Positions 2-33,164 of a DNA stretch of 62,318 bases are shown here, piece by piece. Numbering within the stretch: position 1 is the first letter of the stretch; every line of letters begins with the position of its first letter. This DNA is from an uncultured Holophagales bacterium (lineage in GTDB: Bacteria > Acidobacteriota > Thermoanaerobaculia > UBA5066), in assembly GCA_964384675.1 (NCBI GenBank), contig CAYLNK010000004.1, positions 1 to 62,318 of the forward strand, in the 5' to 3' direction. The notes under the pieces are model-generated. The model made no database searches and had not been told where the DNA came from. It saw only the letters and a program-made list of their open reading frames with translations. The position numbers were made by a program, and so were the translations under genes.

Positions 2-1435
2 GTCGCAGGAGAGCGAGATGCCCGGGAGCGGCGCGAGGCCCAGGATCTGCACGCGCGCGACCGTCGGCGACCCGGGCAACCCGCGCTCGAGACGCTCGCG
101 AAGGTGTGGGAGGAGCACCGGCGCCGCGAGGCCGGTCCCGTGGAGCGCGGCGACGAACGCCGGCTCCCCGGACGGCAGGCGCGGTCCGACCGCGACGATC
201 CAGGCGTGGTGCGGTGTCGAGCCGCCGTCGCGCACGGTGCCGGTCTTCAGCGCGATGCCGCGCTCCAGGAACCAGGCGGCGTCCTTGCTCGTCGCGAGCG
301 TGCCATCGCGCGGCGTCTCTCGCAGCGCGTCGACGACGAACGGCGCTGTGATCGCGAGCCACGTGAAGAGACGGACGGCGGAGACGGGGGAGAGGCGTGT
401 GCCGCCGGTCAGTCCGATCCGCCCGGGCATCGCGGAGGGAACGTCCCGCATTCCGGCGAGACGCAACGTCTCGTCCCAGGCGCGGAACGAGCCGGTGTCC
501 GGCGGGACGAAGTCGAGGAAGAAGCCGTTGCAGGAGCGGGCGAGGGCGCGCTGCCAGGTCCAGATCGCGCCCGGCTCGGGCGGATCGGGGCAATGCCACT
601 CCGGTGCGTCGCGGGAAGAGCGCGGCTCCATGAGCGCGGGGACGAGAGCCACGAGCGACGGCTTCAGGATCGAGCCGGCGGGGACGTCGTCGTCGACGCG
701 ACCCTCGCGGGCGAGCGTCCGCTGCGAGACGCCCTCCACCAGGAGGAAGTCGAAGAGGGCGGGGATCGTGGGGCGCGGGGCGGCGCGGATCCGCTCGAAG
801 AGCTCCGCATGGACGAGTGAGGGCGCGAAGGCGCGGTCCCCGCACGCGCCCAACGTCTTTCGAAACCACGCCTCCCAAGACGCGTCGACGCCCGGCTGCG
901 AGAGGACGCGGGAGAGCGCCGCCTGGACATCGGGCTCGTGGCCGCGGACGGTGCTCTCGCGCGCGGTGAGGAAGTCGCGGGCCTGCGTCGCGAACGGGAA
1001 GCGCTCGTCCGAGAGGGCGCGCCGGGAGGCATCGCCGCTCGCGAAGAGCGCGAACGCCTCCGAGATGATCGGCGCGGAGCGCGCGAGGTCCGGACAGCGC
1101 GCCGCGAGGTAGAGGTGGGCCAGTTCGTGGAGGAGGACTGTCTCGGCGTCGGGACGCGCCAGGAGGCGGGACAGCAGGATCCGGCCCTCGCGCTGCCGCC
1201 CCGCCTCGCCCGGCATCGAGGCGGGGTCGGCGCTCTCGACCGTGACCGCGTCGCGGGGCGAAGGCGCGGGACCGTAGCGCGCCGACCAGTCGCTCCAGGC
1301 TTCCCGCGCCCTCGCCTCCAGCCGGCCTGCGTCCGTCGGCGGGACGTCCCAGCCGAAGCGGAGGCGCGGGGGCTCCTGCGCGGCCGCGGGTGGCGGCGCG
1401 AGCAGGAGCGCGAGGAGCGGGAGAACCTGGCGCAC
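2..1435 (-). CDS. YfaQ/MagE-like secreted protein, 3'-truncated by window edge: signal peptide + gluzincin Zn-metallopeptidase motif + serine transpeptidase/beta-lactamase-like domain
   Basis: Not in ORF track because no stop occurs in the window. Hand translation from GTG at 1435: MRQVLPLLALLLAPPPAAAQ (signal peptide); HELAH at 1115-1129 with Glu at 1058-1060; GSILKP (SxxK) 659-676; SCN 527-535; KTGT 236-247. Lies 6 nt after the A2M stop, the yfaQ/magE position. Confidence 0.8.
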   Translation of the reverse strand, partial: MRQVLPLLALLLAPPPAAAQEPPRLRFGWDVPPTDAGRLEARAREAWSDWSARYGPAPSPRDAVTVESADPASMPGEAGRQREGRILLSRLLARPDAETVLLHELAHLYLAARCPDLARSAPIISEAFALFASGDASRRALSDERFPFATQARDFLTARESTVRGHEPDVQAALSRVLSQPGVDASWEAWFRKTLGACGDRAFAPSLVHAELFERIRAAPRPTIPALFDFLLVEGVSQRTLAREGRVDDDVPAGSILKPSLVALVPALMEPRSSRDAPEWHCPDPPEPGAIWTWQRALARSCNGFFLDFVPPDTGSFRAWDETLRLAGMRDVPSAMPGRIGLTGGTRLSPVSAVRLFTWLAITAPFVVDALRETPRDGTLATSKDAAWFLERGIALKTGTVRDGGSTPHHAWIVAVGPRLPSGEPAFVAALHGTGLAAPVLLPHLRERLERGLPGSPTVARVQILGLAPLPGISLSCD

Positions 1436-27993: not shown

Positions 27994-29322
27994 TCAGGCG
28001 GCCGCGCGCGCGAGGTCGGCGAGCGCCGCCTTCTCGTCCGCGTAGAGGTCGAGGACGCGCGCCGAGAGCGACTCGCGGAGCGCCGCCGCCGCGCCGGCCG
28101 AGAGGGGGAACTCCTCCGTGGGCGCCTTGCCGAGTCCGTCGAGGCCTTTCCAGGCCTCACGGACCTCCTCGGTCGCGGAGGCGCCGCCGGCATGGAAGAG
28201 CTCGGCCTTCCGCTCCAGCCGCTCCCGCGTCGCTCGGAGCGCCGGGACGTCGTCGGGGAGCGCCGCCCTCGCCACCTCGGTCCAGCGGCGTCCGAGGTCG
28301 GCGTACCGCTTCCCGAGCGCCCGGAGGCGCGCGTCGCCGAGGACGTCCGCCGCCTCGTCGAGGAACTCCGCCATCAGCGGTCTCGCCAGCCCGCCGCCCG
28401 ACCAGCTCTCGGCGAACTCGTAGATCGACCAGAGGCCGCGCCACAGACGGGGGCCGGGCGGGAAGATCACGTCCCAGCCGTCCTTCCCCTTCCCGCCGCG
28501 GAGGCTCTCGCCCCAGATCCGGAACGCCTCGATCGTGCAGTTTTTCATCCGGCCGTTCGCGAGGCCGTCGGCGCACGCCGCGAGACCGGACTTCACGGCC
28601 GCCTTCACGTCGACGGCGCCGCCGCGCGCCGGTAGCCAGAGGACGCGGCTCCTGTCCTTCTTGATCCGTGCCCGCGCGGCGTCGAGGTCCGCGAGCGGCA
28701 CGGGGATCGGCTCGTCGGCGAGGTCGCCCACCAGGGCCGCCGCGCCGTCGACGCGGTAGACGGTGAGGAGGTGGTAGCCGCCCCCCTGCCAGTAGGCGGG
28801 CAGGCCGCGGTACGGGAGCGTCGCCATGTCGACCCAGGCGATCGCGGGGCCCGCGGCGGTGGCTTCCGCGAGCGCCTTCGACGCGGCCGCCTTGCCGCCC
28901 GACTCCTTGACGGTCGGCGTGACGCCGAAGCGGGCGCACGCCTCCTTCAGCCAGGCGAGGTCGTCGTACCAGAGGTGCCGTCCCGCCACGAAGAAGCTGG
29001 AGAAGTCGGCCGCCTGGTAGTTGAAGGCGAAGCTCCCCGCGCCGACGCCGCCGCCGATGCCGAAGACCATCGCCTCGGTGAACGGCTCCTTCGTGTGCGG
29101 CGCCACGACGCCGGCGTGGGCGAGGAGGATGCGGAGCGCGGTCGCGATCGGATTGCTGCCGGGGAAGTGGACGAGGGAAGTGCCGGCCGGGCTCGCGGCG
29201 ACGACGGGTCTCGCGGACGCCGGCGAGGCGCCGACGACGTGGCGCCGAGCGGTGGCGTAGCTCTCCCCGGTCTTGGCCATGCGGGCGCGGACCCGCTCCT
29301 TCAGGTGCTTCTGTGTGGTCAT
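27994..29322 (-). CDS. BtrH N-terminal/DUF4872-like protein with N-terminal MTTQKHLKERVRARMAKTGESY motif
   Basis: EAMVFGIGGGVGAG, IAWVDMATLPY, GYHLLTVY, SGGGLARPLMAEFLDEAA resemble the BtrH_N/DUF4872 family. SD AAGGAG upstream. Confidence 0.7.
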   Translation of the reverse strand: MTTQKHLKERVRARMAKTGESYATARRHVVGASPASARPVVAASPAGTSLVHFPGSNPIATALRILLAHAGVVAPHTKEPFTEAMVFGIGGGVGAGSFAFNYQAADFSSFFVAGRHLWYDDLAWLKEACARFGVTPTVKESGGKAAASKALAEATAAGPAIAWVDMATLPYRGLPAYWQGGGYHLLTVYRVDGAAALVGDLADEPIPVPLADLDAARARIKKDRSRVLWLPARGGAVDVKAAVKSGLAACADGLANGRMKNCTIEAFRIWGESLRGGKGKDGWDVIFPPGPRLWRGLWSIYEFAESWSGGGLARPLMAEFLDEAADVLGDARLRALGKRYADLGRRWTEVARAALPDDVPALRATRERLERKAELFHAGGASATEEVREAWKGLDGLGKAPTEEFPLSAGAAAALRESLSARVLDLYADEKAALADLARAAA

Positions 29323-29450
29323 GGGCCTCGGGCTCCTTTTTCGAATCGGCACGGAGAGCGACCGGAGCCTGCGCCTCCACGCTCCCCGCCGGTCGAAAAA
29401 GCGCGACCCACGGTCCTCGAGGAAAGGATCCCCTTTGCCCCCGCTGGCCG
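29323..29450 (-). promoter_or_regulatory. Structured 5' leader (candidate cis-regulatory RNA) of the BtrH-like gene
   Basis: Long hairpin 29336-29401 whose basal stem overlaps the SD; alternative pairing 29359-29365/29389-29395; further hairpins at 29405-29415 and 29423-29436. Confidence 0.55.
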
Positions 29451-29577
29451 GGCCGCGCAGGGGCCCGATCGGGGGTGAGGCGGGAGGCGCCGCCAGGAGC
29501 AGATCGTGTCGCAGCGGGACGTCGCGCGTCAAGAGACGGCCCGGCCAGGGACCCGTCGCAAGCGCTACGCTCCCGCC

Positions 29578-31257
29578 ATGTCCGTCTACGACCTCGCCCC
29601 CGTGCGCCTGCCACGCCTCGCCGGCTCCACGTTCGCCCTCTTCGTGCGCCTCCTCGAGACGGCCTTTCCGGGGCGCCTCCTGGTGGGCAAGACGCTCTCC
29701 GACATGGGTGTCCCGGCGCTCCGGAGTCTCGTCGTCGACGAGCCGCCCTCGTTCCTGCCGGCGTGGCCGGCGCCTCCGGCGGCCGGGCCGGAGCCCCCGC
29801 CGTCGCTTCCGCCGTGGGGCGAGGGGACGCGGGCCGGATTCCTGGCCCCGTCCGCCGAGGACTTCGTCGAGGCGTACCGGAGCGGCCGCACCACGCCGGA
29901 GGCCGTCGCCGAGAGGGCGCTCACGGCGATCGTGGCGAGCGACCGGGCGGCACCGGCCCTCCGGGCGTTCGTCGCCGTCCGGCGTGACGACGTGATGACG
30001 CTGGCCCGCGCCTCGACCGCGCGCTGGAAGGAGGGGAGCCCGCTCGGCCCCCTCGACGGCGTTCCGGTCGGCGTGAAGGACGAGCTCGACGTGGCCGGCT
30101 ACCCGACCACGGTCGGGACGAGCTTTCTCGGCCGGGAGGTCTCGCGGGACGACGCCACGGCGGCGGCGCGCCTCCGGGCCGCGGGGGCGGTGATCCTGGG
30201 CAAGACCAACATGCACGAGATCGGGATCGGCGTGACGGGCTTCAACACGCCGCACGGCACGGCACGCAATCCGCACGCGCCGGGCCATTACACGGGCGGT
30301 AGCTCGAGCGGCTCGGCGGCCGCCGTGGCGGCGGGCCTCTGTCCCATCGCGGTGGGCGCGGACGCGGGCGGCTCCATCCGTATCCCCTCCACGCTCTGCG
30401 GCGTCGTGGGGCTCAAGCCGACGTTCGGGCGCGTCAGCGGGCGTGGCGCGGCCCCGCTCGCCTGGAGCCTCGATCACTACGGGCCGATCGCGGTCTGCGC
30501 CCGGGACGCCGCGCTCGCCTACGCGGCGATGGCCGGGGTCGACCCGGCGGATCCGCTCACGCGCGGGACGCCCCAGGTCTCGCTCGACGGGCTGGAGACG
30601 GGCGACCTCTCCGGTCTGACCCTCGGGATCTTCCGGCCCTGGTTCGACGACGCGGAGCCGGGTGTCGTACGCGTCTGCCGCGCGCTGGTCGACCGGCTGG
30701 CGGAGCGCGGCGCCCGCGTGGTCGAGGTGGAGCTCCCCGACCTCGGAGCCGCGCGCCTTTCGCACCTCGTCCTCGTGGCGGGCGAGATGGCGACCGCGAT
30801 GGAGCCGTACAGGGCCGGGCACGGGCGGGAGCTGGGGCTCGACGTGCGCGCGAATCTCGCGCTGGCCCGCGCCTTCACCGCGCGCGACTACGTCAAGGCT
30901 CAGCGCGTGAGGACGCGGGTGATGGAGCGCTTCCGGCGCGCTTTCGAGACGGTCGACGCGATCGTGACGCCCGGCACGGGAGTCGCCGCGCCGGCGATCC
31001 GGCCCGACGTCCTTCCACGCGGGGAGTCCGACCTGACGATGCTCCTCGCGATCATGCGTTTCGCGTTCCCGTCGAACCTCACCGGCCACCCGGCCATCGC
31101 GTTCCCGGCCGGGTACGCGGAGGGCGGGCTCCCGGTCGGCCTCCAGGCGATCGGCCGTCCCTGGCACGAGCACGTGCTGCTCCGGATCGCCCGCGTCGCC
31201 GAGACCCTCGTGGAGAGGCGGCGGCCGAAGGTCTTCCACGATCTGCTCGGCGGCTGA
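29578..31257 (+). CDS. Amidase-signature family enzyme (fatty-acid amide hydrolase-like)
   Basis: PLDGVPVGVKD (Lys), TGGSSSGSAAAVAAG, GADAGGSIRIPS (catalytic Ser). Confidence 0.93.
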   Translation: MSVYDLAPVRLPRLAGSTFALFVRLLETAFPGRLLVGKTLSDMGVPALRSLVVDEPPSFLPAWPAPPAAGPEPPPSLPPWGEGTRAGFLAPSAEDFVEAYRSGRTTPEAVAERALTAIVASDRAAPALRAFVAVRRDDVMTLARASTARWKEGSPLGPLDGVPVGVKDELDVAGYPTTVGTSFLGREVSRDDATAAARLRAAGAVILGKTNMHEIGIGVTGFNTPHGTARNPHAPGHYTGGSSSGSAAAVAAGLCPIAVGADAGGSIRIPSTLCGVVGLKPTFGRVSGRGAAPLAWSLDHYGPIAVCARDAALAYAAMAGVDPADPLTRGTPQVSLDGLETGDLSGLTLGIFRPWFDDAEPGVVRVCRALVDRLAERGARVVEVELPDLGAARLSHLVLVAGEMATAMEPYRAGHGRELGLDVRANLALARAFTARDYVKAQRVRTRVMERFRRAFETVDAIVTPGTGVAAPAIRPDVLPRGESDLTMLLAIMRFAFPSNLTGHPAIAFPAGYAEGGLPVGLQAIGRPWHEHVLLRIARVAETLVERRRPKVFHDLLGG

Positions 31258-31310
31258 ACGAACCCGGAACGGGGATTCGCGTGTACTGGAGAGGGAGACG
31301 AGGTGCCGCG

Positions 31311-33164
31311 ATGACGAGAGCCCTCCCGGCGGCGATGGCGATCTTCCTGGCGTTGCCCGGAGGCGCGCAGCCTGCGGATTGCCCCGCCGGGACTGCCCTC
31401 TCCGAGCGGCCAGAGGCGCGTCTCCTGGCGGCGCAGAGGGCGATCGATCTCCTCGCCGCCTCGCACCCGCGGGCCCCGCTCCTGGCGGGGATCCCTCCGG
31501 TGCGGCTCCGCAACGTCGTCGACGAGGAGGTCTTCGGGGCCCTCGCCGCCGCCGGCGTCGACCCCGCGCCGCCCAGCTCCGACGCCGAGTTCCTGCGGCG
31601 CGTGACGCTCGACCTGACGGGCCGCATCCCGGACATCGGTGCGACGACGGCGTTCCTCTCGGACGCCTCGCCGGACCGGCGGGCGCGGAAGATCGACGAG
31701 CTGATCGCCTCCGACGCGTTCGCCGACCGCTGGGCGTCCTTCCTGTCCGAGCTGTACCGGGTCACGGCGTACTCCACGACGTCGTTCATGGGATTCCGGT
31801 CGCGCAACGCCTGGCACGCCTACTTCAGAGACGCGCTCCGGAAGGGGACCGCGTACGACGAGATCGCCCGCACCGTCCTCACCGCGGCCGGCAGCAGCGG
31901 CGAGGTGGGACCGGCGAGCTTCGTCGTGAGGGAGATCGCGGCGAACGGGCCGCCTCAGGACACCTGGGACAACCTGGCGGCGGCCACCGGCCGCGCGCTC
32001 CTCGGCACGAACCTCTCCTGCCTCTCGTGCCACGACGGGGCGGGCCACACCGACCAGCTGAACGTCTGGCTCTCGGGGAAGACGCGCGCCGACTTCTGGG
32101 GGATGGCGGCGTTCTTCGCCAACACCTACGTGCGGGCGGAGTACGTCGAGGCGGAGAAGGAGTACCGCTGGGACGTCTTCGACGTCCCGTTCCTCCAGTA
32201 CCGCCTCGACACCACCGACGGCAACAAGTCGCCGCGGCGGCCGGGCCCCGACGGCTCGGCCGTGGTCTTCCCGCGGGAGATCCTCTCGGGCCAGGAGCCA
32301 CGCCCGTTCGAGGGGCGGCGCCAGGCGATCGCGCGCCTCGTCACGTCGCACCGGCAGTTCGCGCGCGCCACCGTGAACTACGTCTTTCGGGAGCTCTTCA
32401 ACCTCGGGCTCGTCGAGCCGGCGGACGGCTTCGACCTGGCACGGCTCGACCCGGCGAGCCCGCCGCCCGCGCCCTGGACCGTCCAGCCGACTCACCCCGC
32501 GCTCCTGGAACGGCTCGCGGTGGCGTTCGAGCGGAGCGGGTACGATCTGACGGCCCTGGTGCGCCTCCTCGTCTCGTCCAACGCGTACCAGCTCTCGTCG
32601 TCGTATCCGGGCGACTGGCGGCCGGCGTACGTGCCTCTCTTCGCGCGGCACATCCCCCGGCGCCTCCGGGCCGAGGAGCTGCACGACTCGATCTCGACGG
32701 CCACGCTGCTGCCCCTCCCGCTGTACGTCCGCGGCGCCCCGGAGCCCGTCCCGTGGGCGAGCCAGCTGCCGGACACGCTGGAGCCGATCGGCAGCGACCC
32801 GAGCGGCGTCTCGTACGTGGTGCGCGACTTCCTCGACGCGTTCGGGAGGGGCGACCGCGACCTCACGCCGCGACGCGGTGACGGCTCCCTGCTCCAGGCC
32901 CTCCACCTGATGAACGACCCGCTGGTGACGTTCCGGGTGCGCTCGGACGTGACCGGCTCGCTCGTCTTTCGCCTCCGCGCCGGCGTCCCGTTCGAGCGGC
33001 GGGTGGACGCCCTCTACCTCGCGACCCTCTCCCGCTTCCCGACGCCGGAGGAGCGGCTCGAGGGCTTCCGCATCCTCCTCGACCCGGGTCGCGGGGAAGC
33101 GCAGGCTCTCGAGGACCTCCAGCACGCGCTCCTGAACCAGCTCGAGTTCGTCTTCTGCCGCTGA
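31311..33164 (+). CDS. DUF1549/DUF1553 (PSCyt2/PSD1) protein with one heme c motif
   Basis: DAEFLRRVTLDLTGRIP, CLSCHD (CxxCH), FARATVNY, LQALHLMND. Confidence 0.9.
   Translation: MTRALPAAMAIFLALPGGAQPADCPAGTALSERPEARLLAAQRAIDLLAASHPRAPLLAGIPPVRLRNVVDEEVFGALAAAGVDPAPPSSDAEFLRRVTLDLTGRIPDIGATTAFLSDASPDRRARKIDELIASDAFADRWASFLSELYRVTAYSTTSFMGFRSRNAWHAYFRDALRKGTAYDEIARTVLTAAGSSGEVGPASFVVREIAANGPPQDTWDNLAAATGRALLGTNLSCLSCHDGAGHTDQLNVWLSGKTRADFWGMAAFFANTYVRAEYVEAEKEYRWDVFDVPFLQYRLDTTDGNKSPRRPGPDGSAVVFPREILSGQEPRPFEGRRQAIARLVTSHRQFARATVNYVFRELFNLGLVEPADGFDLARLDPASPPPAPWTVQPTHPALLERLAVAFERSGYDLTALVRLLVSSNAYQLSSSYPGDWRPAYVPLFARHIPRRLRAEELHDSISTATLLPLPLYVRGAPEPVPWASQLPDTLEPIGSDPSGVSYVVRDFLDAFGRGDRDLTPRRGDGSLLQALHLMNDPLVTFRVRSDVTGSLVFRLRAGVPFERRVDALYLATLSRFPTPEERLEGFRILLDPGRGEAQALEDLQHALLNQLEFVFCR

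What the first reader, a model, noticed from the sequence alone, without database searches (positions are those of the whole stretch)
29230..29322. Portable basic N-terminal 'MTTQKHLKERVRARMAKTGESYATARRH' module: possible RNA-binding autoregulator of its own leader
Seen: a ~30-aa Arg/Lys-rich helical segment separated from the BtrH-like body by an Ala/Ser/Pro linker, directly downstream of the structured leader. From recollection, near-identical N-termini occur on many unrelated proteins in high-GC bacteria, which suggests a mobile leader-RNA + peptide cassette. Inference: an undescribed post-transcriptional feedback module in which the peptide binds the hairpin and is grafted onto diverse cargo domains. 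This is my strongest candidate for a new regulatory system, but it depends on a search I cannot run.
Basis: inference. Interest (0 to 1): 0.7.

Follow-up and report, generated by a model that had tools for sequence, protein, structure and literature searches.

The report
Portable basic peptide plus leader-RNA cassette
A 30-residue, strongly basic two-helix tag at the start of this gene is shared by at least four unrelated enzyme families in five bacterial phyla. In every copy examined it sits behind the same uncatalogued, intricately folded leader RNA, so the two form a movable gene-control cassette whose mechanism is still untested.

Summary
Window 29233-29322 (minus strand) encodes MTTQKHLKERVRARMAKTGESYATARRHVV, a predicted helix-turn-helix hairpin (net charge +6). 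A low-complexity linker joins it to a BtrH_N/DUF4872 body.

- **Portability.** The same peptide always sits at the extreme N-terminus. It heads four unrelated bodies: BtrH_N/DUF4872, DUF4287+AHSA1, DUF1835-like and CN_hydrolase. It occurs in Actinomycetota, Chloroflexota, Acidobacteriota, Gemmatimonadota and rhizobial plasmids.
- **Selection.** It is conserved at the protein level; invariant residues use up to six synonymous codons.
- **Linked RNA.** Every peptide gene examined (about 140) follows one ~170-nt leader RNA that starts at the promoter. The RNA has five helices plus a 7-bp loop-loop kissing interaction, all supported by compensatory changes. The base of its last hairpin pairs with the Shine-Dalgarno sequence. 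It matches no Rfam family.
- **Joint loss.** Close BtrH homologues without the peptide also lack the RNA.
- **Exception.** In 3 of 54 informative RNA-first hits the RNA precedes a DUF1761 membrane-protein gene with no peptide.

The 'portable RNA + peptide cassette' reading is therefore supported. That the peptide binds its own leader is plausible but untested (about 0.4). The main rival is a riboswitch-type leader whose regulon proteins share a nucleic-acid-binding tag.

The parts
29233..29322 (-). Codons 1-30: the portable basic N-terminal module MTTQKHLKERVRARMAKTGESYATARRHVV. Predicted helix 2-18, turn T18-G19-E20, helix 22-32. Net charge +6.
   Evidence: Translation. AF2. Profile search, 3173 clusters. 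Always at the N-terminus. Protein-level conservation with synonymous codon variation.
29173..29232 (-). Low-complexity Ala/Ser/Pro/Gly linker (about residues 31-50) between the module and the body.
   Evidence: pLDDT drops to 68-69. Identity across relatives is 18% here against 76% in the module; 68% A/P/G/S/T/E/D.
27994..29172 (-). Cargo body: BtrH_N plus DUF4872. Papain-like carrier-protein acyltransferase fold, with a helical C-terminal domain. Includes the stop codon.
   Evidence: Pfam. Foldseek matches to AziU3/U2, CtaG and CcbD, E 5e-8 to 1e-4.
29405..29499 (-). 5' domain of the leader RNA (helices Pa, Pb, P0, P1). This is the only match to model R1 in the 62-kb window.
   Evidence: R1 hit, 64.2 bits, E 2e-11. 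Structure counts on 99 leaders: 90.8% of cells paired against 37-54% for slid controls; 18 of 24 pairs show double changes.
29479..29494 (-). Pa hairpin GGCGG-CGCCUC-CCGCC, at the 5' end of the transcript. Sequence conservation starts abruptly here.
   Evidence: A TANNNT -10-like hexamer lies 12-16 nt upstream in 90 of 96 relatives. The window itself has CACGAT there, so it is one of the 6 exceptions.
29448..29468 (-). P0 hairpin. Its 7-nt loop CCUGCGC (29455-29461) pairs with the P2 apical loop.
29438..29475 (-). Pb helix (CCCCC 29471-29475 with GGGGG 29438-29442), which encloses P0.
   Evidence: 99.6% of cells paired; 4 of 5 pairs show double changes, for example CCGCC/GGCGG, CCUGC/GCAGG, CUCUC/GAGAG.
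29419..29439 (-). Near-invariant GGCAAAGGGG (29430-29439) and the P1 hairpin (29419-29433), followed by CUCGAGGA.
29333..29401 (-). P2 long hairpin. Its basal strand CUUUUUCGA (29393-29401) pairs with UCGAAAAAG, which overlaps the SD AAGGAG (29333-29338). Its apical 7-nt loop GCGCAGG (29368-29374) is the kissing partner of the P0 loop.
   Evidence: Local fold z = -3.33. Kissing helix paired in 100% of cells in 93 distinct leaders; 6 of 7 pairs show double changes. SD pairing probability 0.755 against 0.60 for shuffled controls, p = 4e-8. Coordinates.
29320..29322 (-). ATG start codon of the tagged gene.

Best explanation
**What it is (shown).** The finding is the protein half of a conserved three-part cassette.

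- A promoter.
- A ~170-nt structured leader RNA with helices Pa, Pb, P0, P1 and P2, plus a 7-bp kissing interaction between the P0 and P2 loops. The base of P2 pairs with the Shine-Dalgarno sequence.
- The first 30 codons of the gene, which encode a strongly basic two-helix hairpin tethered to the cargo enzyme by a flexible linker.

The peptide is under protein-level selection. The cassette occurs in front of at least four unrelated cargo families in five phyla. It is gained and lost as a unit.

**How it most likely works (inferred, not shown).**

1. The leader is a translational switch. Its closed form, locked by the kissing loops, hides the ribosome-binding site.
2. The N-terminal hairpin is an arginine-rich RNA-binding module.
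3. The module binds this leader, perhaps the kissing-loop complex, much as Rop binds the ColE1 RNA I/RNA II kissing complex.
4. Binding stabilises the closed form, so each tagged protein limits its own synthesis and that of other genes carrying the leader.
For: **Peptide to RNA.** Model R1 hits once upstream of every peptide gene in the window and 80 genome loci, and nowhere else in 448 kb. This includes leaders not used to build the model. It also hits upstream of the DUF1835-like genes and the CN_hydrolase genes of Sinorhizobium and Streptomyces plasmids.

**RNA to peptide.** Of 58 R1-confirmed RNAs found with an RNA-only pattern in metagenomes, 51 are followed by the peptide at the expected distance.

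**Joint loss.** BtrH/DUF4872 homologues at 53-55% identity that start directly at the body (L159/L160, L162) have no RNA, with best R1 scores under 9 bits and filters off.

**The RNA is real.** Pa, Pb, P0 and P1 give 90.8% of cells paired against 37-54% for slid controls, and 0 of 500 shuffles reach the observed values. The kissing helix is paired in 100% of cells, with nine loop/partner combinations (seven fully complementary and two with a G-U wobble).

**Protein-level selection.** Entropy at codon position 3 is 1.05, against 0.41 at position 2. Invariant R12 uses all six Arg codons.

**Peptide properties.** Charge is +6 to +9, with a confident helical hairpin and a poorly conserved linker.

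**No DNA operator.** Conservation stops sharply at the inferred transcript start, and there is no conserved DNA upstream. The only conserved non-coding partner available is therefore the RNA.
Against: - No binding evidence of any kind exists.
- The RNA occurs without the peptide in front of DUF1761 genes (L087, L095, L123). The leader can therefore function without a cis-encoded peptide, as expected for a riboswitch or a target of another factor.
- The RNA has five helices, a pseudoknot and near-invariant unpaired purines. It is more elaborate than typical peptide-binding hairpins and looks like a metabolite aptamer.
- The peptide has no detectable similarity to any known RNA-binding family. 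Pfam gave nothing, NCBIfam only perm_prefix_1 at E = 0.026, PDB sequences nothing, and Foldseek nothing at E<=0.001.
- SD occlusion is only moderately above a GC-rich background.
- The loci were found with exact-word patterns, so divergent exceptions may have been missed.
Confidence: 0.4

Rival explanations
1. The leader is a riboswitch, or the target of an unrelated trans-acting factor, that senses a signal independently of the peptide. The peptide is a functional address tag: a nucleic-acid-, ribosome- or polyanion-binding anchor. The regulon's enzymes need it to reach their common substrate or site. The two co-occur because all tagged proteins belong to one regulon, not because they touch each other.
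For: - The RNA has aptamer-like complexity, with near-invariant unpaired segments (GGCAAAGGGG, CUCGGGA).
- It also controls a DUF1761 membrane-protein gene that has no tag, as riboswitch regulons typically mix gene families.
- Two cargo families (BtrH-like, CN_hydrolase) are thiol amidase/acyltransferase folds. They could share a substrate class.
Against: - About 94% of informative RNA copies precede the same 30 residues. This is unlike known riboswitch regulons.
- Close homologues of the cargo that lack the tag also lack the RNA.
- No candidate ligand or common pathway emerges from the gene neighbourhoods.
Confidence: 0.35
2. The peptide acts in cis as a nascent chain or RNA chaperone. As it emerges from the ribosome it contacts its own mRNA leader or the ribosome. 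It either keeps the leader open (positive feedback that sustains translation) or stalls early elongation. The control is then co-translational rather than by the mature protein.
For: - The peptide is always at the extreme N-terminus, at a fixed distance from the leader.
- It is followed by a 20-40-residue flexible linker that would expose it while the body is still being made.
- In some lineages the predicted base of P2 also covers the start codon.
Against: - No upstream ORF, and no downstream structure typical of arrest-peptide systems, was seen.
- Known arrest peptides act through the exit tunnel with quite different sequences.
- DUF1761 genes use the leader without the peptide.
Confidence: 0.1
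3. The N-terminal hairpin is a small DNA-binding domain of ribbon-helix-helix or helix-turn-helix type. It turns the cargo proteins into one-component transcription regulators or nucleoid-tethered enzymes. The leader RNA is an unrelated linked element.
For: - A basic N-terminal domain, a linker and a ligand-binding body is the usual layout of one-component regulators.
- By eye, the A-x-x-G-x-S turn resembles the helix A-helix B junction of Arc/CopG.
Against: - AF2 predicts no beta strand, and 30 residues are too few for a ribbon-helix-helix core.
- No Pfam, NCBIfam or PDB match exists.
- There is no conserved DNA upstream of the transcript start that could serve as an operator: information is 0.0-0.5 bits per position.
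- The conserved stems covary, which points to RNA pairing and not to sequence-specific DNA recognition.
Confidence: 0.08

Closest known systems
Autogenous translational control by RNA-binding proteins (ribosomal-protein leaders such as L20 and S15 with pseudoknots; the ThrRS operator)
   Same: A structured 5' leader with a pseudoknot overlaps the ribosome-binding site of the gene. The gene's product is a basic, putatively RNA-binding protein. The leader is tightly linked to the coding sequence.
   Different: - Here the presumed binding module is a 30-residue tag grafted onto at least four unrelated enzymes, not the whole protein.
- The leader and tag move together between gene families and phyla.
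- No binding has been shown.
- No resemblance of the leader to rRNA or tRNA was tested.
Arginine-rich-motif peptides binding RNA hairpins (lambda/P22 N with boxB; Tat-TAR and Rev-RRE as general models)
   Same: A short, N-terminal, Arg/Lys-rich helical peptide lies next to a structured RNA element in the same transcription unit.
   Different: - ARM peptides are single helices of 10-20 residues that bind simple hairpins and act in antitermination or export.
- This is a two-helix hairpin with an invariant K-T-G-E turn.
- The RNA is a five-helix fold controlling translation.
- There is no sequence similarity.
Rop/Rom protein and the ColE1 RNA I-RNA II kissing complex
   Same: Two hairpins with fully complementary 7-nt loops form a loop-loop complex. 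A small helical-hairpin protein stabilises such a complex regardless of loop sequence. That would fit a conserved peptide facing covarying loops.
   Different: - Rop is a 63-residue acidic-to-neutral four-helix-bundle dimer acting on an intermolecular antisense pair in plasmid copy control.
- Here the kissing is intramolecular within an mRNA leader.
- The peptide is half that size and very basic.
- No sequence or fold match was found. This is an analogy only.
Orphan riboswitch candidates ('motif RNAs' found by comparative genomics and deposited in Rfam)
   Same: A conserved, covarying, pseudoknotted 5' leader in several phyla, with an SD-sequestering expression platform and downstream genes of unknown function.
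   Different: - It matches none of the 4227 Rfam 15 families.
- Unlike any riboswitch class I know of, about 94% of its copies are followed by the same 30 N-terminal residues, whatever the enzyme.

Membership tests
Pfam / NCBIfam families covering the N-terminal 30 residues | A significant profile-HMM match over residues 1-30 | tested here: not met
   Pfam gave 0 families at E<=10 for residues 1-30 and 1-47. NCBIfam gave only perm_prefix_1 (NF038403) at 13-14 bits, against a cut-off of 30.
Any Rfam 15 family (for the co-occurring leader) | A covariance-model match at or near the gathering score | tested here: not met
   Window 28800-30000 gave only a spurious lncRNA hit at 15 bits. Eight other loci covering all classes gave no hit on the leaders.
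Arginine-rich-motif RNA-binding peptides | A short Arg/Lys-rich segment predicted to be helical | tested here: met
   Net charge is +6 to +9 in 30 residues. Helices 2-18 and 22-32 are predicted with pLDDT 84-95.
Arginine-rich-motif RNA-binding peptides | Specific binding to a cognate RNA element | not testable with these tools
   This needs EMSA, MST or NMR with the peptide and the leader.
Autogenously regulated RNA-binding proteins (r-protein-leader type) | A conserved structured leader overlapping the RBS of the protein's own gene | tested here: met
   SD pairing probability is 0.755 against 0.60 in controls.
Autogenously regulated RNA-binding proteins (r-protein-leader type) | The protein represses translation of its own mRNA | not testable with these tools
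   No expression data. No RNA runs were found for the window or for Planobispora rosea.
Rop/Rom | Sequence or fold similarity to the Rop helical hairpin | tested here: not met
   The profile against PDB sequences gave 0 hits at E<=10. Foldseek on the peptide model gave no hit at E<=0.001 and no Rop among the 22 weak hits.
Rop/Rom | The target is a loop-loop kissing complex of two 7-nt loops | tested here: met
   The P0 loop and the P2 apical loop are 7 of 7 complementary in 99 of 99 leaders, with compensatory variants. Whether the peptide recognises this complex is unknown.
Riboswitch | A conserved, covarying aptamer-like fold with an expression platform | tested here: met
Riboswitch | Direct binding of a small-molecule or ion ligand | not testable with these tools
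   No ligand can be inferred. The downstream genes are of unknown function.
Ribbon-helix-helix DNA-binding domains | An N-terminal beta strand followed by two helices (about 45 residues), with a matching family profile | tested here: not met
   AF2 predicts no strand and the module is only 30 residues. No Pfam hit. No conserved operator DNA.
BtrH_N / DUF4872 (the cargo body of the window's gene) | Pfam matches above the gathering score, and a BtrH-like fold | tested here: met
   PF14399 scored 46.0 bits (cut-off 29.7) and PF16169 scored 50.6 bits (cut-off 28). Foldseek matched AziU3, CtaG and CcbD.

The most novel reading that the evidence does not exclude
The cassette is a self-contained, horizontally transferable autoregulation device. 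An N-terminal arginine-rich helical hairpin recognises the intramolecular kissing-loop fold of its own mRNA leader and clamps it in the ribosome-binding-site-occluded state. Any enzyme fused behind the tag then acquires homeostatic, post-transcriptional feedback. This would be the first modular 'RNA operator + peptide repressor' tag known in bacteria, present in five phyla.
Probability: 0.35. Interest if true: 0.9.

Novelty: new variant of a known kind. Interest (0 to 1): 0.8.

Why it matters
Three things follow if this holds.

1. **A new structured RNA class.** It adds a widespread cis-regulatory RNA to the catalogue, found in five phyla and hundreds of loci. It has very strong covariation support and an unusual intramolecular kissing-loop lock.
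2. **A new kind of linkage.** The RNA is almost always followed by the same 30-residue basic peptide on unrelated enzymes. Known riboswitches and protein-binding leaders do not show this. It makes a concrete hypothesis directly testable with a synthetic peptide and an in-vitro transcript.
3. **Practical value.** A compact, portable feedback tag would be useful in synthetic biology. It would also give a functional handle on four families of unknown or poorly known function (DUF4287/SRPBCC, DUF1835, BtrH_N/DUF4872, DUF1761).

Even if the peptide does not bind the RNA, the leader is a strong orphan-riboswitch candidate. The peptide would then be an unrecognised protein-targeting or anchoring module.

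Tried and rejected
**Searches that gave nothing**
- Pfam and NCBIfam on the peptide gave nothing usable. The weak perm_prefix_1 hit is below threshold and was not pursued.
- By eye the peptide resembles ribosomal proteins bL34, bL35 and bS21, and Arc/CopG. Pfam reported no hit at E<=10, so these are recollections only. The ribbon-helix-helix idea was rejected because no strand is predicted and the module is too short.
- PDB sequence search with the peptide profile gave 0 hits. Foldseek on the 33-residue model gave only insignificant helix matches.
- Rfam gave no family.
- Four literature searches found no description of the RNA, the peptide or these DUF combinations.
- The scan's earlier notes hold nothing on relatives.

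**Analyses that were uninformative**
- Folding the whole 281-nt intergenic stretch gave z = -0.10, which is uninformative in 75% GC DNA. Only the local P2 hairpin stands out (z = -3.33).
- RNAalifold on a MAFFT alignment of the 3' domain recovered only the three apical pairs of P2. The basal stems differ in length between classes. SD occlusion therefore rests on per-sequence folds.
- The sigma-70 scan found no promoter in the window. The -10-like TANNNT signal comes from relatives.

**Tools or data not available**
- No RNA-seq runs were found for the window, which is a bioreactor/activated-sludge metagenome organism, or for Planobispora rosea.
The window's own genome could not be censused for further cassettes.

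**Leads that turned out to be artefacts**
- Free-standing small 'peptide-only' proteins look like contig-end or frameshifted fragments.
- L005 (64 aa) is a BtrH gene with an internal deletion.
- The single Pfam hits to Peptidase_M1, FGE-sulfatase, PG_binding_1, GerE and others appear to be chimeric or fragmentary metagenome proteins. I do not count them as cargo families.
- P0308 looked peptide-less but was a mis-called start; it has both the peptide and the RNA.
Full report
**1. What is at the coordinates**

The finding lies on the minus strand. The ORF 27994-29322 encodes a 442-residue protein. Its body matches BtrH_N (residues 61-200) and DUF4872 (214-354). Its predicted fold resembles the carrier-protein-dependent amide-forming enzymes AziU3, CtaG and CcbD.

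Residues 1-30 (window 29233-29322) read MTTQKHLKERVRARMAKTGESYATARRHVV, followed by an Ala/Ser/Pro-rich stretch. AlphaFold2 predicts helix 2-18, a turn at T18-G19-E20 and helix 22-32. This holds within the whole protein (pLDDT 73/90/85 for the first three 10-residue blocks, 69/68 for the linker) and for the peptide alone (mean pLDDT 89). The observation as written is correct.

**2. Is the N-terminal module portable?**

Yes.

- A search restricted to residues 1-40 returned three kinds of protein. These were BtrH_N/DUF4872 proteins, ~367-aa proteins that sources name DUF1835, and ~250-320-aa proteins with DUF4287 and AHSA1/START domains. All begin with MT(x)Q(x)xFKxRVRARMAKTGESYxxAR.
- A profile of 13 such N-termini, run against 1.84 billion cluster representatives, found 3173 clusters at E<=1e-3 and 367 at E<=1e-10. 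The match is almost always at residue 1.
- The bodies of the best 147 hits fall into three large groups plus singletons. The groups are DUF1835-like (36), DUF4287-type (33) and BtrH-type (10). The singletons look like fragments or chimeras.
- A scan of one genome per species for the exact word ARMAKTGE gave 382 confirmed loci. They come from Actinomycetota, Chloroflexota, Acidobacteriota and Gemmatimonadota. In 79 of 79 retrieved loci a start codon lies exactly 12 codons upstream, so the module is always the extreme N-terminus.
- tblastn against plasmids added a fourth body, CN_hydrolase. It occurs on Sinorhizobium, Rhizobium, Phyllobacterium, Microvirga and Streptomyces replicons.
- Conservation is at the protein level. 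Invariant R12 uses all six Arg codons. A25, G19 and T2 use four codons each. Third-position entropy is 1.05, against 0.41 at second positions.
- Identity falls from 76% (residues 1-30) to 18% (residues 31-50), and net charge is +6 to +9.

**3. Is there a conserved upstream RNA?**

Yes, and it is much more than a hairpin. Aligning the upstream regions showed conserved blocks across all body classes and phyla. The architecture, with window coordinates, is:

| Element | Window coordinates (minus strand) | Note |
|---|---|---|
| Pa hairpin | 29479-29494 | 5' end of the transcript |
| Pb helix | 29471-29475 with 29438-29442 | encloses P0 |
| P0 hairpin | 29448-29468 | 7-nt loop at 29455-29461 |
| GGCAAAGGGG | 29430-29439 | near-invariant |
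| P1 hairpin | 29419-29433 | followed by CUCGAGGA |
| P2 hairpin | 29333-29401 | apical loop 29368-29374; base pairs with the SD |

- **Helices of the 5' domain.** On 99 distinct leaders the four 5' helices are paired in 90.8% of cells. Slid controls give 37-54%. Eighteen of 24 pairs show changes on both sides, and none of 500 shuffles reaches any observed measure. Pb covaries clearly, for example CCUCC/GGAGG, CCGCC/GGCGG, CCUGC/GCAGG, CUCUC/GAGAG and CCCCC/GGGGG.
- **Kissing loops.** The 7-nt P0 loop is complementary to the 7-nt apical loop of P2 in 99 of 99 leaders; 92 have seven Watson-Crick pairs and 7 have one G-U. Seven fully complementary variants occur: CCCACGC/GCGUGGG, CUCACGC/GCGUGAG, UCCACGC/GCGUGGA, CCUGCGC/GCGCAGG (the window), CCCGCGC/GCGCGGG, CCCACAC/GUGUGGG and CCCCAGC/GCUGGGG; two further combinations carry one G-U wobble. 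On a joined mini-alignment this helix is paired in 100% of cells, and 6 of 7 pairs show double changes.
- **Caveat on the kissing test.** The partner was chosen as the best complement in a ~100-nt span. However, it always falls 35-52 nt before the ATG, inside a hairpin loop whose closing pairs also covary.
- **SD occlusion.** The base of P2 pairs a pyrimidine-rich strand with the SD. Examples are CUUUUUCGA:UCGAAAAAG in the window, CUUCUCGA:UCGAGGAG in L025 and CCCUUUCC:GGAGAGGG in L032. The window's hairpin is more stable than shuffles (z = -3.33). SD pairing probability is 0.755 against 0.60 in controls (p = 4e-8). This is moderate support.
- **Transcript start.** Conservation begins abruptly at the first G of Pa. 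A TANNNT hexamer starts 12-16 nt upstream in 90 of 96 leaders, against 0-1 in control windows. The RNA therefore starts at or next to the transcription start, and there is no conserved DNA operator.
- **Not catalogued.** No Rfam 15 family matches any class of this leader.

**4. How tight is the linkage?**

| Direction tested | Result |
|---|---|
| Peptide to RNA, window + L001-L080 | 82 R1 hits, one upstream of each peptide gene (two in L037, which has two genes), none elsewhere in 448 kb |
| Peptide to RNA, other classes | RNA present at DUF1835-like loci L157/L158 and CN_hydrolase loci L163-L165 |
| RNA to peptide, RNA-only pattern in metagenomes | 76 places: 58 true RNAs, 18 chance matches |
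| Fate of the 58 true RNAs | 51 peptide (35 DUF4287-type, 11 BtrH-type, 5 cut short or unclassified); 3 DUF1761 without peptide; 2 decayed; 2 contigs end too early |
| Body without peptide | L159/L160 and L162 (53-55% identical bodies) have ordinary SD leaders and no RNA |

- Model R1 has 98 positions and 24 pairs. Its hits include leaders that were not in the seed alignment.
- The three peptide-less loci are L087, L095 and L123. The two decayed copies are L096 and L131.
- The peptide-less body homologues start directly at the body, with in-frame stops upstream. With filters off, the best R1 score there is under 9 bits.
- One apparent exception, P0308 (L161), was a mis-called start and has both elements.

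In short, the peptide was never seen without the RNA. The RNA is rarely seen without the peptide. The two are lost together.

**5. Mechanism**

*Shown.* There is a promoter-leader-tag cassette. The RNA fold includes an intramolecular kissing-loop lock and a P2 base that engages the SD. The tag is a basic, tethered helical hairpin under protein-level selection.

*Inferred.* The leader is a translational switch.

For the role of the tag I favour direct binding to the leader, giving negative feedback (about 0.4). The reasons are these:
- The linkage is near-obligate and asymmetric.
- The only conserved non-coding partner is the transcript.
- The peptide has the composition of an arginine-rich RNA binder.
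- Its sequence stays constant while the kissing-loop sequences covary. That suits shape recognition of the Rop type. This is an analogy only; no similarity was found.

The main rival (about 0.35) is a riboswitch or other factor-controlled leader. On that reading the regulon proteins share a nucleic-acid or polyanion anchoring tag. The DUF1761 cases and the aptamer-like complexity of the RNA favour it.

Two lesser rivals remain. One is a co-translational or chaperone role of the nascent tag. The other is a DNA-binding domain. The second is disfavoured by the lack of operator DNA and by the covarying stems.

**6. Comparison with what is known, and novelty**

The closest concepts are r-protein- and ThrRS-type autogenous control, ARM peptide-hairpin pairs, Rop with kissing loops, and orphan riboswitch candidates. 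Membership in any named family failed wherever it could be tested (Pfam, NCBIfam, Rfam, PDB). No paper in the searchable library describes the RNA, the peptide or their association.

I rate it a new variant of a known kind: a cis-regulatory structured leader with a probable protein partner. The near-obligate coupling to a portable N-terminal peptide is the new feature.

**7. Limits**

- No binding or expression data exist.
- The loci were retrieved with exact-word patterns, which biases them towards the commonest variants.
- Only the best 150 of 3173 profile hits were inspected.
- The P2 basal helix was not formally tested for covariation.

Noticed in passing
L087, L095:675-1236, L123 (metagenome contigs): The same leader RNA (R1 66-74 bits, kissing loops intact) precedes a ~131-aa DUF1761 membrane-protein gene that has no basic tag. 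The leaders resemble the DUF4287-class leaders right up to the start codon, which suggests a recent recombination at the ATG.
   Followed up: partly
L163, L164, L165 and plasmid hits H2-H29: On rhizobial megaplasmids and Streptomyces linear plasmids the cassette heads carbon-nitrogen hydrolase genes. The S. meliloti RU11/001 copy (L165) has ATA in place of ATG and a truncated ORF (161 aa), yet it keeps the RNA (42.9 bits). It is probably a pseudogene.
   Followed up: partly
L037:860-955(-) and 1257-1352(+): A Pilimelia MAG contig carries two cassettes back to back in divergent orientation. Several genomes hold two or three cassettes with different cargo. Planobispora longispora has L057 (BtrH-type) and L075 (DUF4287-type). 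Nonomuraea gerenzanensis has 3 places.
   Followed up: no
window 29506/29579-31257 (+): An amidase-signature (GatA-like) gene is transcribed divergently from the same intergenic region as the cassette. Two of the tagged cargo families (BtrH-like, CN_hydrolase) are also amide-bond enzymes. This may be coincidence.
   Followed up: no
L005:2501-3398: In Nonomuraea sp. NPDC046570 the BtrH-type tagged gene has an internal deletion and frameshift. Residues ~58-181 are missing and the rest is in another frame. This leaves a 64-aa ORF behind an intact leader.
   Followed up: yes
L096 and L131 (metagenome contigs): Two decayed copies of the cassette. L096 has a mismatched P0 loop (CUCAUGC) and no start codon after the SD. 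In L131 the leader runs straight into DUF4287-body sequence, so the SD and the tag have been deleted.
   Followed up: partly
window 29323-29335 (+): The terminator scan flags a small hairpin followed by CTTTTTCGAA on the plus strand. This is simply the complement of the SD / P2-base region of the minus-strand leader, and is probably not a terminator for the amidase side.
   Followed up: no
window 31281-33164 and the earlier notes on this genome: The surrounding genes (a DUF1549/DUF1553-type protein) and the closest named homologue of the cargo (a Thermoanaerobaculia MAG, 56% identity) point to an Acidobacteriota organism. Identical DNA occurs in bioreactor and activated-sludge metagenome runs.
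   Followed up: no
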